Part shown: positions 14,595 through 63,127 of the stretch, one piece after another | Layout of the letters: each line of letters begins with the position of its first letter | Position numbering within the stretch: position 1 is the first letter of the stretch | Virus record (IMG/VR): IMGVR_UViG_3300044911_002321 | Coordinates: 6,388 to 70,387 of that record | From: a virus | Length of the DNA: 64,000 bases | Reading direction: 5' to 3' (one strand) | Notes under the pieces: generated by a model | What the model saw: the letters and a program-made list of their open reading frames with translations, nothing else | Database searches by the model: none | Told to the model about the DNA's origin: nothing | Position numbers and translations under genes: made by a program

Positions 14595-15290
14595 ATGCCA
14601 GCACCAGTAGTAGCCGCCGCTGCAGCCGCAGCACAACCAGCTCTTTTCGCAGGGTTTATGAACTTACTTCGCCCTGCTTTAATGAGTGGCGGCATTAGTA
14701 CTGCTGTTAGCGTAATGCTGGGTGAAGAGTTACCCAAAGCTTTACTATATGGCGCTGGAGATACTCTGGTTTCTACCGCAGCAATTGGGGGATTACGTGC
14801 GGTAAGACCAGGAAAAAATGTGGAAATAAAAGACGTAAAGACTGGCAAGATAAGAAATGAATATCAGCCAAGTAGATTAGAAACCCCTGTCAATGTTATT
14901 GCTTCCCTTGGAGCGGGCAACTTAGTTAGTGCTGCCCTTGGAAGACCATCTTTATTTGGCCCTGGTCGAGAAACACCTCAACAGCATCAAAGCCAATCTT
15001 TACAAGAAACAGATCTTAGTAATGTTAATTTAGATCAATTAACTGAGCCAGAGTTAGCGCAATTATCTGACGAACAGATCCTTACTATTATTCAACAAAA
15101 CAATCAACGTGACCAAGTTAACAGGAAGCAATTCTTAGATAGTTACATGGATAAGCTTGCCCCTGGAACAATGTTCCAAACTGCCGGACTACCTAGCAGG
15201 CAGTCGATGAACGATGAGTTTATGCGAACTGAAATGAACACCGACTTTGGTGAAATCCAAAAAATGATGGGAGCAATTGCCGGTGTCTAA
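14595..15290 (+). CDS. Hypothetical protein, putative virion protein
   Basis: 231 aa; TATAAT upstream. Confidence 0.75.
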   Translation: MPAPVVAAAAAAAQPALFAGFMNLLRPALMSGGISTAVSVMLGEELPKALLYGAGDTLVSTAAIGGLRAVRPGKNVEIKDVKTGKIRNEYQPSRLETPVNVIASLGAGNLVSAALGRPSLFGPGRETPQQHQSQSLQETDLSNVNLDQLTEPELAQLSDEQILTIIQQNNQRDQVNRKQFLDSYMDKLAPGTMFQTAGLPSRQSMNDEFMRTEMNTDFGEIQKMMGAIAGV

Positions 15291-60851: not shown

Positions 60852-60979
60852 ACGCCTCGAAAAATACTTTACAAGATTAACGAAAGAATTTCCTTACATC
60901 AAAAGTAAGGAGATAGAAGAAGCAATAACGCGTCCATGTAAGTGGGCTAAAATATTAGAAGAAAAAGTTACGAATCCTG

Positions 60980-61075
60980 ATGTCTCAGGAGAATAAATAT
61001 ACAAAGCCTGAGTTACGCGAACGTATTAGAGATCGCGTGATGGCAGGATCTAAAGGTGGAAAGCCTGGGCAGTAA
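60980..61075 (+). pseudogene. Truncated 5' copy of a DUF5872-like gene (31 aa)
   Basis: MSQENKYTKPELRERIRDRVMAGSKGGKPGQ-stop, paralogous to 61712-61816. Confidence 0.75.
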
Positions 61076-61110
61076 CTCTGTGCTATTGTAAGAAAAGCAC
61101 AAACAACCCA

Positions 61111-61719
61111 ATGCAAAAACTTTGTCGTGAGTGCGGCGTCAGAAAGCCGCATGTAAATTTTGGCAACAAAGGGCAGACAACAGCGGGTAATACAAAAAGA
61201 GATAGTGTCTGCAAAGATTGCAGGTCAATAGTAAACCGTCGATTTGAAATTCTATACGGCGCTGACGGGTTAAAACAATGTTCTAAATGTGCACACTATT
61301 TAGATTGGGATTCTTTTAGAAGGAGAAAACAAGATGGTAAATTGTATTTACACTCTTCATGTAAAACATGTAACAAAATTCAATGGGATAAATGGGTAGA
61401 AAATAATAAAGAACACTATCAAGAAATAAAAAAGAAAGGACAAGATTTACTACATCAAAATCACAAAAAATATGAAAGGCGAGGCATTACAAAACAAGAA
61501 TATGAAATTGTTTTTGAAGCACAAAAAGGCTTATGTGCCATTTGTAAACAACCTTCTAAAGACGGCCATTCATTAGCAATGGACCATAACCACAAAACAA
61601 ATGAATTTAGAGGTTTGCTTTGCAAAGAATGTAATAGGGCTCTAGGCTTGTTCGGTGATAATATAGATGTATTGACAAACGCAGTTCTTTATCTCAAAGA
61701 GCGAGGAAGCTATGGCTGA
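61111..61719 (+). CDS. Endonuclease VII-like homing endonuclease
   Basis: CRECG, CSKC, Q.GLCAIC, MDHNHKTNEFRGLLCKECNRALG. Confidence 0.9.
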   Translation: MQKLCRECGVRKPHVNFGNKGQTTAGNTKRDSVCKDCRSIVNRRFEILYGADGLKQCSKCAHYLDWDSFRRRKQDGKLYLHSSCKTCNKIQWDKWVENNKEHYQEIKKKGQDLLHQNHKKYERRGITKQEYEIVFEAQKGLCAICKQPSKDGHSLAMDHNHKTNEFRGLLCKECNRALGLFGDNIDVLTNAVLYLKERGSYG

Positions 61720-62020
61720 AGACAAAAGCAAGTACACCAAACCCGATCTTCGCGAGCGCATTAAAAATCGTGTAATGCGTGAAGGCCGTGGTGGTAAACC
61801 AGGGGAATGGTCGTAGCCGTGAGGCTAATTAATTTCGGCACGCAAGGCTCAACTTGTTGCTAGTGAGTACAAAGAAGCTGGTGGTGGGTACAAAGGAGGC
61901 AAGGGTGAAAAGCAAAAAGATTTGGAGAAGTGGGGCAAGGAGAAGTGGATGACCAAAGACGAGTATGAGAAACGTGGCAAGGCTAAGTCTGCTGCAAAGA
62001 AGTACAAGGAGAGCAAGTAA
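61712..62020 (+). CDS. DUF5872-like basic protein interrupted by a 24-nt in-frame non-coding gap (94 aa if bypassed)
   Basis: KYTKPDLRERIK...GGKPGEWS [gap] ARKAQLVASEYKEAGGGYKG...KWGKEKW. Confidence 0.75.
61811..61837 (+). other. Candidate programmed translational bypassing element
   Basis: TCG take-off, TAG stop, TAGCC-GTGA-GGCTA hairpin, matching in-frame TCG landing codon 24 nt downstream. Confidence 0.65.
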
Positions 62021-62925
62021 TGGAATTATTCCAGAAGTTTTTAAATCGTGTAAGCCGTGGCTACGGTCAAGTAGATAAAAATGTGTTTGGCGGATTACTC
62101 CCGGGGGGAGCAGCATCAGTGGTAAGTCCTGTAAAGCAAAAAGCACAATCAACAGCAGTTAATACAGGAAAAGTTTTAGCTGGCGCAGCAATGAACCAGC
62201 TTCCAGATCGTGCAAATTTATTTGCCCGTTATGTTACGGGTGTTGGGAATACCAATCTTCAACTTGATCCATCAACAGTAATGGACTTAAGAGCAGCAGC
62301 TACTAAACCACCCTTGGCAACAGGAATGGTAGCTAATCCATTTAAAGTACCAGAAGAAGTCTTGGTAGGCATGAAACAACAGTTAACTCAAAGTCATCCT
62401 GATACCGTTAATTCTCCCCTCGGAAAATTAATTACAGAAACAATTACTAGAGGAGAAAAAAATAAAGATTTACCTGATTTTGTGCGCGGACCAGTTCCTG
62501 CATATGGACCAGGTCTTGTTTCTTCTGGTCCTGTAGTTCCTTATGGTAGACCAGACGTTGGAACAAGTGTTACCAATACATTAGGTTCTTATAACGTTCA
62601 TGTAAATCCGGGACAATCAATTACGTTTAAAGATACTTATGACATGACAAATCCAGATGAAGATCCAGATCTTATTTCAGGAAAGTTTCAACCACTTAAA
62701 GCAATAGGAGAAATTCAAAGTATCTGGGATCCTTCCAAAGGATATTTAGGTCAAAAAAGATTCGGCGGTCCTTTTTCACCACCCCAGCCTGAAAAAAAAT
62801 ATGGTGAAATGCCTGAAACTAAATCGCAAGTCGCAAGTCCAGCTACTGCGCTAGGTCGTGCACTTCTTTATGCATTGCCCGTAAAACCTCAACCATATGA
62901 TGTTAATGTAACTGTTCCTTATTAA
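62020..62925 (+). CDS. Hypothetical protein
   Basis: 301 aa ORF overlapping the previous stop (TAATG). Confidence 0.75.
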   Translation: MELFQKFLNRVSRGYGQVDKNVFGGLLPGGAASVVSPVKQKAQSTAVNTGKVLAGAAMNQLPDRANLFARYVTGVGNTNLQLDPSTVMDLRAAATKPPLATGMVANPFKVPEEVLVGMKQQLTQSHPDTVNSPLGKLITETITRGEKNKDLPDFVRGPVPAYGPGLVSSGPVVPYGRPDVGTSVTNTLGSYNVHVNPGQSITFKDTYDMTNPDEDPDLISGKFQPLKAIGEIQSIWDPSKGYLGQKRFGGPFSPPQPEKKYGEMPETKSQVASPATALGRALLYALPVKPQPYDVNVTVPY

Positions 62926-62926
62926 T

Positions 62927-63127
62927 ATGGCAGACAAGGCAATTCAGAAAGGCTACACCAAGCGTTACCTTCCAGAGAGTGCATGGGCTGCACTGTCTAA
63001 AGAAGAACGTGCGGAGACAGACCAAAAGAAAAGAGCTGGTAGTAGAGAAGGTAAACAATTTGTAGGTAACACTGAACGTGCCAAGAAAGCCGGACGTGCA
63101 GCTCGTCGTTACAAAGAAGGTAAGTAA
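62927..63127 (+). CDS. Small basic protein resembling the C-terminal part of DUF5872-like proteins
   Basis: RYLPESAWAALS.EE...T..KKR.G...GKQFV. Confidence 0.65.
   Translation: MADKAIQKGYTKRYLPESAWAALSKEERAETDQKKRAGSREGKQFVGNTERAKKAGRAARRYKEGK

What the first reader, a model, noticed from the sequence alone, without database searches (positions are those of the whole stretch)
61811..61837. T4 gene 60-like ribosomal bypass (hop) element: matched TCG codons across a 24-nt stop-filled gap
Seen: ...GAA TGG TCG | TAG CCG TGA GGC TAA TTA ATT TCG | GCA CGC AAG... The Ser take-off codon is followed at once by TAG, which begins a TAGCC-GTGA-GGCTA hairpin (GNRA loop). The gap contains all three stop codons in frame and ends in an identical TCG. 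Removing it gives a continuous 94-aa protein with the family motif GGKPGEWSARKAQL. The downstream 60 codons are intact and have no early start codon. Known (from memory): T4 gene 60 bypassing uses matched GGA codons, UAG and a UAGCC-UUCG-GGCUA hairpin over a 50-nt gap, and lies next to the mobA homing endonuclease gene. The same stem and context here, in an unrelated cyanophage gene, suggest an independent compact bypass element tied to homing.
Basis: partly seen in the sequence, partly recalled or inferred. Interest (0 to 1): 0.92.

Follow-up and report, generated by a model that had tools for sequence, protein, structure and literature searches.

The report
Ribosome-hop gap in cyanophage homing cassette
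A small conserved gene of a lake cyanophage is interrupted by 24 untranslatable bases that came in with a selfish nuclease gene, and natural variants suggest ribosomes hop over them, as in phage T4 gene 60.

Summary
At 61811-61837 a TCG codon is followed by TAG, a 5-bp hairpin with a GNRA loop, an A/T spacer and a second TCG. This is an exact 8-codon insert in the most conserved motif of a 94-aa DUF5872 gene.

The insert is the 3' end of a mobile cassette. In order: native gene stub, EndoVII-type HNH nuclease gene, replacement gene start, gap.

I found 40 distinct natural alleles.
- Take-off TCG and TAG occur in 40 of 40, landing TCG in 38 of 40, and the hairpin in 39 of 40.
- Gaps are 23-33 nt, and 11 of 40 are not multiples of three. 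The downstream ORF is still whole in the landing frame in all 39 complete alleles.
- Both gene halves show strong purifying selection.
- Uninterrupted relatives use TCG at this serine in only 8 of 112.

Programmed translational bypass is the best explanation (about 0.72). No protein or reporter data exist. The T4 gene 60 hairpin stem is identical, but the gene, nuclease family and gap length differ. I found no published report of it. This scan has already noted the same cassette on other DNA.

The parts
60980..61075 (+). Stub of the native DUF5872 gene: 31 codons ending ...GGKPGQ, then TAA. This is the left flank of the cassette insertion.
   Evidence: ORF. It aligns with the N-termini of uninterrupted homologues. 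A contig of an uninterrupted relative follows the window up to 61071 and rejoins it at 61921 (table 5). Stubs occur upstream of the nuclease gene in other loci.
61076..61110 (+). Left end of the cassette: a conserved non-coding stretch between the stub and the nuclease start.
   Evidence: Nearly the same letters follow the stub stop in most loci. Function not tested.
61111..61719 (+). Free-standing EndoVII-type HNH (homing) endonuclease gene, 202 aa.
   Evidence: Pfam PF02945, E 3.8e-21. 47 related loci in viral contigs, 73-85% identical for most. 36% identity to the annotated homing endonuclease F-CphI of S-PM2. pN/pS about 0.11-0.15 in two pairs.
61712..61813 (+). Replacement N-terminal coding segment (N'), 34 codons. 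It has its own GAGGA ribosome-binding site, and its ATG overlaps the end of the nuclease gene. It ends in the take-off codon TCG (61811-61813).
   Evidence: Intact in 40 of 40 alleles. pS 0.51 against pN 0.04 in 24 alleles.
61814..61834 (+). Untranslated gap: TAG stop (61814-61816), hairpin TAGCC-GTGA-GGCTA (61814-61827) and A/T spacer (61828-61834).
   Evidence: Folds of -9 to -11 kcal/mol. Hairpin present in 39 of 40 alleles, with loops GTAA, GTGA, GCAA or GGGA. No TC dinucleotide inside any of the 18 distinct gaps.
61835..61837 (+). Landing codon TCG, which is the native serine codon of the motif.
   Evidence: TCG in 38 of 40 alleles and TCT in 2. Uninterrupted homologues use TCG in 8 of 112 and 0 of 32.
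61838..62020 (+). C-terminal 60 codons of the DUF5872 gene plus TAA.
   Evidence: The ORF is whole in the landing frame in 39 of 39 complete alleles. pN/pS 0.08 in three pairs of vertical relatives.

Best explanation
The 24 nt are a programmed translational bypass (hop) element that forms the 3' end of a homing-endonuclease cassette.

The cassette consists of an HNH/EndoVII gene, a replacement gene start N' and the gap. It inserted into a 94-aa DUF5872 gene of an S-EIV1-like lake cyanophage, just after the ...GGKPGQ codons, and left the old start as a stub.

Proposed mechanism:
- Translation starts at the N' ATG, which overlaps the end of the nuclease gene, and reaches TCG (Ser34) in the P site with TAG in the A site.
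- The hairpin that begins at the TAG forms, and peptidyl-tRNA-Ser leaves its codon.
- About 21 nt of mRNA slide through the ribosome.
- At the DNA level the gap probably breaks the nuclease's target sequence, so the invaded allele is not cut again.

Shown here: the anatomy, its recurrence and conservation, and selection on both halves. Inferred: the hop itself, its efficiency, which tRNA is used, and the immunity role.
For: (1) The insert is an exact 8 codons in the most conserved motif of a large family. 1016 of 1458 candidates scored E<=0.001, and the best 120 are mostly 93-98 aa.

(2) Across 40 distinct alleles (77 instances), take-off TCG is 40/40, TAG 40/40, landing TCG 38/40 (TCT 2/40) and the canonical hairpin 39/40. 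Neighbouring Gly, Ala and Arg codons each use up to four synonymous forms.

(3) Take-off to landing distances are 23, 24, 27, 28, 29 and 33 nt. 11 of 40 are not multiples of three, yet the downstream ORF (47-62 codons) is whole in the landing frame in all 39 complete alleles.

(4) Uninterrupted homologues rarely use TCG at this serine: 8 of 112 Q-type and 0 of 32 E-type.

(5) Selection. N' has pS 0.51 against pN 0.04. The first 27 codons after landing have pS 0.79 against pN 0.10. In three pairs with >=80% identical downstream flank, the C part has 38.8 synonymous against 12.2 non-synonymous differences, pN/pS 0.08. The cassette has diverged to a similar degree, with HNH pS 0.58 and 0.11.

(6) In 7 of 18 distinct gaps no start-like codon lies between the nearest landing-frame stop and the landing codon. 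In 4 of them TGA directly precedes it.

(7) Seven alleles keep N', the gap and the C part although the nuclease gene is a remnant (6) or absent (1).

(8) None of the 18 gaps contains a TC dinucleotide, so there is no early UCN landing site.

(9) T4 gene 60 has the same stop-plus-stem arrangement.

(10) A contig from an RNA library covers 61670-61839, gap included, with no difference. This is weak, because DNA carry-over is possible.
Against: - There is no protein, reporter or ribosome-profiling evidence.
- The stem never varies, so it has no covariation support. DNA-level constraint, such as nuclease immunity, could conserve it equally well.
- One allele (L011) lacks the hairpin but has intact halves.
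- The T4-type mini Shine-Dalgarno 5-7 nt before landing is absent. The only AGG lies 9-19 nt upstream, as I counted on the gaps printed.
- The hairpin plus its T-rich tail also scores as terminator-like.
- In the window itself an in-frame ATT with GAGG 7 nt upstream could allow re-initiation.
- Cassette DNA is more alike between contigs than the flanks are. Some invasions may therefore be recent, and part of the C-terminal conservation may predate them.
- The selection test on vertical relatives rests on only three pairs.
- It is unknown whether cyanobacterial ribosomes can bypass.
Confidence: 0.72

Rival explanations
1. Termination and re-initiation (split gene). Ribosomes stop at TAG and release the 34-aa N' peptide. 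The C-terminal part is started separately near the landing site, using the AGG of the hairpin and the A/U spacer as a ribosome-binding site. The two peptides then work together.
For: In the window, ATT lies in frame just before TCG with GAGG 7 nt upstream. ATT or ATA occur there in 11 of 18 distinct gaps. The 48-aa subfamily has an ATG six codons after landing. Split genes with added tails are described for MobA and MobE elements in the text of 10.1101/2022.08.31.505936, section 12.
Against: 7 of 18 distinct gaps have no start-like codon between the last stop and the landing codon, and in 4 of them TGA directly precedes it. The five codons after landing vary only synonymously in 40 of 40 alleles, including those upstream of the subfamily's ATG. 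The landing filter required these residues, but it dropped no family site. This model gives no reason for the landing codon to be TCG in 38 of 40 against 8 of 112 in intact genes.
Confidence: 0.1
2. Homing scar in a dead gene. The gap only protects the cassette-bearing DNA from its own nuclease or ends its transcript. The DUF5872 gene is inactivated, and its halves look intact because invasions are recent.
For: Cassette DNA is more alike between loci than the flanks are: HNH 0.82 and N' 0.80 against flanks about 0.55. This fits recent spread. The hairpin scores as terminator-like. Uninterrupted alleles co-occur in the same lake runs. No second intact copy is needed if the gene is dispensable.
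Against: N' is a cassette-specific lineage with pS 0.51 against pN 0.04. In the pair L001/L025 the cassette and the C part have both diverged to pS about 0.5, yet the C part shows 15.5 synonymous against 2.5 non-synonymous changes. 39 of 39 complete alleles have no stop or frameshift in the C part. Seven alleles outlived their nuclease gene. No other DUF5872 copy lies in the 70,387-base record.
Confidence: 0.09
3. RNA-level excision. The 23-33 nt are cut out of the mRNA and the ends ligated by an unknown phage or host activity that recognises the hairpin (a mini-intron).
For: Exact removal restores the frame in every allele. The repeated TCG makes the boundaries ambiguous, as at many splice junctions. 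The hairpin is a plausible recognition element.
Against: No Rfam family matches 60900-62100 at E<=1. No self-splicing intron of this size is known to me (recalled). The only RNA-library contig over the site keeps the gap, and no joint across it was seen in four runs (very low cover). A stop directly after the first TCG and the absence of TC inside the gap are not needed for splicing.
Confidence: 0.05

Closest known systems
Phage T4 gene 39 / mobA / gene 60 element with its 50-nt translational bypass, and its homologues in myovirus Topo2L genes (Manning & Atkins, bioRxiv 10.1101/2022.08.31.505936; I read sections 3, 10 and 12)
   Same: - A homing-nuclease cassette inserted inside a conserved gene that brings a new gene start plus an untranslated gap.
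- Matched take-off and landing codons.
- UAG directly after take-off.
- A hairpin beginning at the stop with the identical TAGCC/GGCTA stem and a stable tetraloop. GNRA loops and a 20-nt gap also occur among gene 60 homologues.
- An A/U-rich distal gap.
- The gap is retained after the nuclease is lost.
   Different: - The target gene is DUF5872, not Topo2L.
- The nuclease is the EndoVII type (PF02945). The T4 mobA fragment shows a different HNH motif.
- The gap is 23-33 nt, not 50.
- The codon is Ser TCG, not Gly or Asp.
- The new start is a diverged duplicate of the gene's own 5' end, and the old 5' end is left as a dead stub rather than a working split subunit.
- No mini-SD lies 5-7 nt before landing.
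- The nascent-peptide signals are not comparable.
- Nothing has been tested experimentally.
Byp elements of Magnusiomyces capitatus mitochondria (27-55 nt; as described in the introduction of 10.1101/2022.08.31.505936)
   Same: Short inserts of similar size inside essential coding sequence, presumed to be bypassed precisely. They spread as mobile DNA.
   Different: Those are mitochondrial, number 81 copies in many genes, are followed by an unassigned sense codon rather than a stop, and are not linked to a nuclease gene. Here there is one site in one gene family, in a bacterial virus.
F-CphI, the free-standing EndoVII-like homing endonuclease next to the psbA intron of cyanophage S-PM2
   Same: The same nuclease family, also in a cyanophage. 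36% identity over residues 44-196, E 3e-13, annotated 'F-CphI: homing endonuclease'.
   Different: F-CphI sits beside an intron-containing gene. That its target is an intron insertion site is recalled, not checked here. The present nuclease sits inside its target gene, with a replacement start and a gap.
UUA-triggered candidate bypassing in Streptomyces phages (PMC10732093; I saw only the search listing and the start of the abstract)
   Same: Candidate natural bypassing in a phage gene, inferred from sequence.
   Different: It is triggered by a rare sense codon. The gap lengths and the proposed regulatory role are not compared here.

Membership tests
Gene-60-type programmed translational bypass (functional class) | Matched take-off and landing codons read by one tRNA | tested here: met
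   TCG/TCG in 38 of 40 alleles and TCG/TCT in 2 of 40. Intact homologues use TCG in 8 of 112.
Gene-60-type programmed translational bypass (functional class) | [quoted passage not shown] | tested here: met
   TAG in 40 of 40.
Gene-60-type programmed translational bypass (functional class) | A stable stem-loop at the take-off site that can form in the A site | tested here: met
   A 5-6 bp stem with a GNRA loop begins at the TAG in 39 of 40 alleles. Predicted energy -9 to -13 kcal/mol. There is no covariation, because the stem is invariant. L011 lacks it.
Gene-60-type programmed translational bypass (functional class) | The reading frame of the product is restored only by joining take-off to landing | tested here: met
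   11 of 40 gaps are not multiples of three. The C ORF is whole in the landing frame in 39 of 39 complete alleles.
Gene-60-type programmed translational bypass (functional class) | A Shine-Dalgarno-like triplet 5-7 nt 5' of the landing codon | tested here: not met
   The spacer before landing is A/T-rich (73-100%) and has no GAG, GGA, AGG or GGG at that distance. The nearest AGG is in the 3' arm of the hairpin, 9-19 nt upstream (my count on the gaps printed).
Gene-60-type programmed translational bypass (functional class) | A nascent-peptide signal in the exit tunnel | not testable with these tools
   N' has 34 residues and carries cassette-specific basic substitutions just N-terminal of the GGKPGEWS motif relative to native starts. 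Their role is unknown.
Gene-60-type programmed translational bypass (functional class) | A full-length protein made across the gap | not testable with these tools
   No proteomic or reporter data. Only purifying selection on both halves.
MobA / gene 60 mobile element (homologous family) | Inserted in the Toprim domain of the Topo2L gene | tested here: not met
   The target is a 94-aa DUF5872 gene.
MobA / gene 60 mobile element (homologous family) | A MobA-type HNH nuclease (or its VSR or GIY-YIG replacements) | tested here: not met
   The nuclease matches Pfam Endonuclease_7. The T4 mobA fragment has a different HNH motif. I made no direct profile comparison with an intact MobA.
Free-standing EndoVII/HNH homing endonucleases | An intact nuclease domain, patchy presence at one site among related genomes, and an empty site in relatives | tested here: met
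   PF02945, E 3.8e-21. Cultured relative S-EIV1 has the uninterrupted gene and no nuclease. Uninterrupted alleles occur in the same lake runs. The cassette is more conserved than the flanks. Cleavage itself was not tested.
DUF5872 (PF19197) | A match to the family profile | tested here: met
   The 60-aa C part alone scores E 0.03, below the cut-off. The read-through with X at the three stops finds 1016 relatives, and most of the 120 listed carry PF19197.
Known intron or ribozyme families | A match to a curated RNA family | tested here: not met
   No Rfam match at E<=1 in 60900-62100.

The most novel reading that the evidence does not exclude
The stop-plus-hairpin unit of 14 nt, together with a matched codon some 10-20 nt downstream, is a minimal and portable 'hop module' that drives efficient bypass on cyanobacterial ribosomes. 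It would do so without gene 60's 50-nt gap, its mini-SD or its special nascent peptide. It either shares descent with the T4 gene 60 hairpin or was found twice by selfish nuclease cassettes. In that case nuclease-linked bypass would be a general strategy in phages rather than a T4 curiosity.
Probability: 0.3. Interest if true: 0.93.

Novelty: new variant of a known kind. Interest (0 to 1): 0.8.

Why it matters
Efficient long-distance bypass is known in bacteria essentially from one system, T4 gene 60 and its Topo2L homologues. The 2022 survey that I read states that the bypass cassette 'remains unique'.

A second family would give the recoding field an independent system for asking which signals are truly needed. 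It lies in an unrelated gene, has an unrelated nuclease and gaps half as long, and offers 18 natural gap variants.

It would also support the idea that such gaps exist to hide the nuclease's own target site.

It matters for annotation too. Gene callers report these genes as fragments, and the interrupted gene here yields only a 34-aa ORF and an uncalled remainder.

Tried and rejected
**Searches that found nothing useful**
- blastn of 60900-62100 and tblastn of the 60-aa C part against cultured phages found nothing. tblastn of another window ORF also found nothing.
- The exact 32-base junction was absent from viral contigs.
- I looked for other take-off codons (TCA, TCC or TCT followed by TAG). 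All 46 stretches were chance sites outside the family, so there is no covariation of take-off and landing codons.
- I looked for other stems. With TAGC followed by a non-C base, viral contigs gave only the L011 contig again.
- The genome-contig scan stopped at 120 rows. Only 2 were true family sites, both on contigs of binned genomes, and they gave no information on the host.
- There are no tRNA genes in the window and no Rfam match.
- Beyond the 5-6 bp hairpin, no extended stem-loop is consistent across variants. A predicted GUCG/CGGC helix closing the gap follows from the fixed coding letters, and I do not claim it.

**Checks with limited results**
- Among the 120 best uninterrupted homologues, 0 carry the cassette-type N' start, so no gap-loss alleles were seen.
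- RNA-library runs gave almost no cover. X20 has none over the gap and X18 has one contig. Absence of a spliced form there proves nothing.

**Limits on sources**
- The supplements of 10.1101/2022.08.31.505936 were not open. Its tables of metagenomic cases might hold non-Topo2L examples, although the main text says there are none.

**Considered and rejected**
- Read-through of three different in-frame stops.
- A simple tolerated in-frame insertion, which is excluded by the 11 frame-changing gaps.

Full report
**Observation.** On the + strand the window reads GAA TGG TCG, then TAG CCG TGA GGC TAA TTA ATT TCG, then GCA CGC AAG.
- The two TCG codons are at 61811-61813 and 61835-61837.
- TAG (61814-61816) starts a hairpin with a 5-bp stem TAGCC/GGCTA and loop GTGA (61814-61827).
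- The remaining seven bases are all A or T.
- The upstream ORF (61712-61816) has 34 codons, and the downstream frame (61838-62020) has 60 codons. Its first in-frame ATG/GTG/TTG is at 61922, codon 29.

**Surroundings.**
- Directly upstream lies a 202-aa ORF (61111-61719) that matches Pfam Endonuclease_7 (E 3.8e-21). It is 36% identical to the annotated homing endonuclease F-CphI of cyanophage S-PM2.
- Its last codons overlap the ATG of the 34-codon ORF, which has a GAGGA ribosome-binding site.
- Upstream of the nuclease gene is a 31-codon stub (60980-61075). It is a second, different copy of the same N-terminus and stops right after ...GGKPGQ.
- The window belongs to a relative of Synechococcus phage S-EIV1. 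A 757-aa structural protein is 72% identical over its full length.
- S-EIV1 itself has the uninterrupted 94-aa gene, no nuclease gene, and AGT at the serine in question.

**The gene family.**
- I read the interrupted gene through with X at the three stops and searched with it. 1016 of 1458 candidates scored E<=0.001, and the best 120 are mostly 93-98 aa and carry PF19197, DUF5872.
- In an alignment with 15 of them, the only length difference is an 8-column insert in the window's gene, between the W and the S of the family's most conserved motif. The stub aligns with the native N-termini.

**The same element elsewhere.**
- The nuclease protein recovered 47 loci from IMG/VR, and motif patterns recovered more.
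- Pooling everything gave 77 instances and 40 distinct alleles, counting the N' part, the gap and the C part together.
- Take-off TCG occurs in 40/40, TAG in 40/40 and landing TCG in 38/40 (TCT in 2).
- The stem TAGCC/GGCTA with a GNRA loop occurs in 39/40. Loops are GTAA 22, GTGA 13, GCAA 2 and GGGA 2. L011 has no hairpin.
- There are 18 distinct gaps. The take-off to landing distances are 23 nt (2 alleles), 24 (14), 27 (14), 28 (6), 29 (3) and 33 (1).
- Eleven of the 40 are not multiples of three. Even so, the downstream ORF is whole (47-62 codons) in the frame set by the landing codon in all 39 alleles that are complete on their contig. The N' ORF is intact in 40/40.
- Neighbouring codons vary freely at synonymous sites. 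The Gly codon eight positions before the gap, and the Ala and Arg codons just after landing, each use four forms.
- No gap contains a TC dinucleotide, so there is no earlier UCN triplet to land on.

**Is TCG special?**
- In uninterrupted homologues the serine codon at this site is TCT 39, TCA 27, AGC 14, AGT 13, TCC 11 and TCG 8 of 112 distinct Q-type genes.
- It is never TCG in 32 uninterrupted E-type instances (my count, not de-duplicated).
- A scan for TCA, TCC or TCT take-off followed by TAG found only chance sites (46 of 46).
- The matched TCG pair is therefore a property of the gap-bearing alleles. There is conservation but no covariation.

**Selection.**
- By Nei-Gojobori counts over 24 alleles of the 60-aa type, N' has pS 0.51 against pN 0.04. 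The first 27 codons after landing, which precede any start codon in the window, have pS 0.79 against pN 0.10. The 48-aa type (9 alleles) gives similar ratios.
- Cassette DNA is more alike between loci (HNH 0.82, N' 0.80) than the stub and the C part (0.72) or the flanks (about 0.55). The cassette has evidently moved between genomes, so some C-terminal divergence may predate invasion.
- To allow for this, I took pairs of gap-bearing alleles whose downstream flank is at least 80% identical. There were only three such pairs. Their C parts differ by 38.8 synonymous and 12.2 non-synonymous changes, pN/pS 0.08.
- In L001/L025 the nuclease gene has itself diverged to pS 0.58. Cassette and C part therefore seem to have co-diverged for a long time while the C part stayed under protein-level constraint.
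- Seven alleles keep N', the gap and the C part although the nuclease gene is reduced to its last 19-62 codons (6 alleles) or is gone (1 allele).
- No second DUF5872 copy lies in the 70,387-base record.

**Re-initiation?**
- I listed the landing-frame codons between the nearest upstream stop and the landing codon.
- In 7 of 18 distinct gaps none is start-like. In four of these TGA directly precedes the landing codon.
- In 9 there is only ATT or ATA, the window included: its ATT has GAGG 7 nt upstream. The two 23-nt alleles, which share one gap, have an out-of-frame ATG or GTG made from the Glu-Trp codons.
- The five codons after landing encode the same residues in all 40 alleles, with two to four synonymous codons each. 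My landing filter required them, but it dropped only non-family sites.
- A separate start therefore cannot be the general rule, though it cannot be excluded for the window alone.

**Reads.**
- Contigs from two lake-water DNA runs cover 60900-62300 (1 difference) and 60931-62300 (3 differences) with no indel. One of them may be the window's own source.
- The same runs hold uninterrupted relatives. One contig follows the window to 61071, the end of the stub, and rejoins it at 61921 with 90 letters in between. Loose ends read ...CAA TGG TCT directly before 61838. This places the cassette between about 61073 and 61834.
- One 176-base contig from an estuary metatranscriptome covers 61670-61839, gap included, without a difference. 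No joint across the gap was seen. Cover is minimal and DNA carry-over is possible, so this is only a weak hint against RNA excision.

**Comparison with what is known.**
- In T4 (NC_000866) the gene 60 gap begins with GGA then TAG, has the identical stem TAGCC/GGCTA around TTCG, and ends at GGA 50 nt on. mobA lies between genes 39 and 60.
- Manning & Atkins (10.1101/2022.08.31.505936; I read sections 3, 10 and 12) found dozens of homologues, all in Topo2L genes of myoviruses. These have GNRA loops in some, a 20-nt gap in one clade, wobble-differing landing codons in several, and retention of the gap after nuclease loss. They call the cassette unique, and they report that the insert protects the DNA from MobA.
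- The present element shares the logic and the hairpin. It differs in target gene, nuclease family (EndoVII type; the T4 mobA fragment has another HNH motif), codon and gap length. It has no SD-like triplet 5-7 nt before landing. Its old 5' end is a dead stub rather than a working subunit.
- UAG fixes three of the five stem pairs, so the stem identity could be convergent. Common descent cannot be decided.
- My four literature searches found no report of bypassing in DUF5872 or in cyanophages.
- This scan's own notes describe the same cassette on other genomes. These are AI notes and are not independent evidence.

**Mechanism proposed.** The nuclease cuts uninterrupted alleles near the GGKPGQ-WS-ARK codons, and repair copies the cassette in. 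The cassette brings its own diverged 5' half, so the gene can still be started. The last 21-30 nt of the cassette keep the two halves of the target sequence apart. Ribosomes cross this stretch by a hop from TCG to TCG, helped by the A-site stop and the hairpin.
- Shown: the anatomy, mobility signature, conservation and selection.
- Inferred: cleavage specificity, immunity, the hop and its efficiency.

**Verdict.** Programmed bypass is the best-supported reading at about 0.72. Re-initiation (0.10), a dead scar (0.09) and RNA excision (0.05) remain possible. The finding is a new variant of a known kind, of high interest to the recoding field, and it is still untested at the bench.

Noticed in passing
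window 61076-61110; the same place in L001-L032: About 30 bases after the stub's stop are nearly the same in most cassette-bearing loci and can form an imperfect 6-bp hairpin. This may be the left end of the mobile cassette or the nuclease gene's expression signal.
   Followed up: no
L011 3695-3730 (= L054): One allele has a 24-nt gap whose central nine bases are replaced by A/T, so no hairpin can form (about -3 kcal/mol). The nuclease gene, N' and the 60-codon C part are all still intact.
   Followed up: partly
L037, L038, L044, L057, L087, L099, L104: The nuclease gene is reduced to its last 19-62 codons or is gone, while the replacement start, the gap and the C part persist. This is a 'hit and run' pattern like that described for MobA elements.
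   Followed up: partly
L259 1501-1785 (S-EIV1, KJ410740 15196-15480): The cultured relative's DUF5872 gene is annotated from an internal start (15259), although the full 94-codon ORF begins at 15196. Its first 21 codons are missing from the record's protein.
   Followed up: yes
L044 3200-3240; L104: The longer gaps (29 and 33 nt) look like the shorter ones with extra CTAA/ACTA units in the spacer, as if the spacer grows by short tandem duplication.
   Followed up: no
window 62927-63127; L044 3379-3594: A second small, very basic ORF (66-71 aa, with a conserved ...GSREGKQFV.NTERAKKA... motif) lies shortly downstream of the DUF5872 gene in the window and directly after it in L044. It has no Pfam match.
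   Followed up: no
proteins P0063, P0076, P0081, P0099: Some uninterrupted homologues carry GGKKGEWSGRK instead of GGKPGQWSARK at the insertion site. These may be target-site variants that escape the nuclease.
   Followed up: no
window 60900-62300 in runs X2 and X4: Cassette-bearing and uninterrupted alleles of the gene co-occur in the same lake-water runs, as expected for an element that is still spreading.
   Followed up: partly
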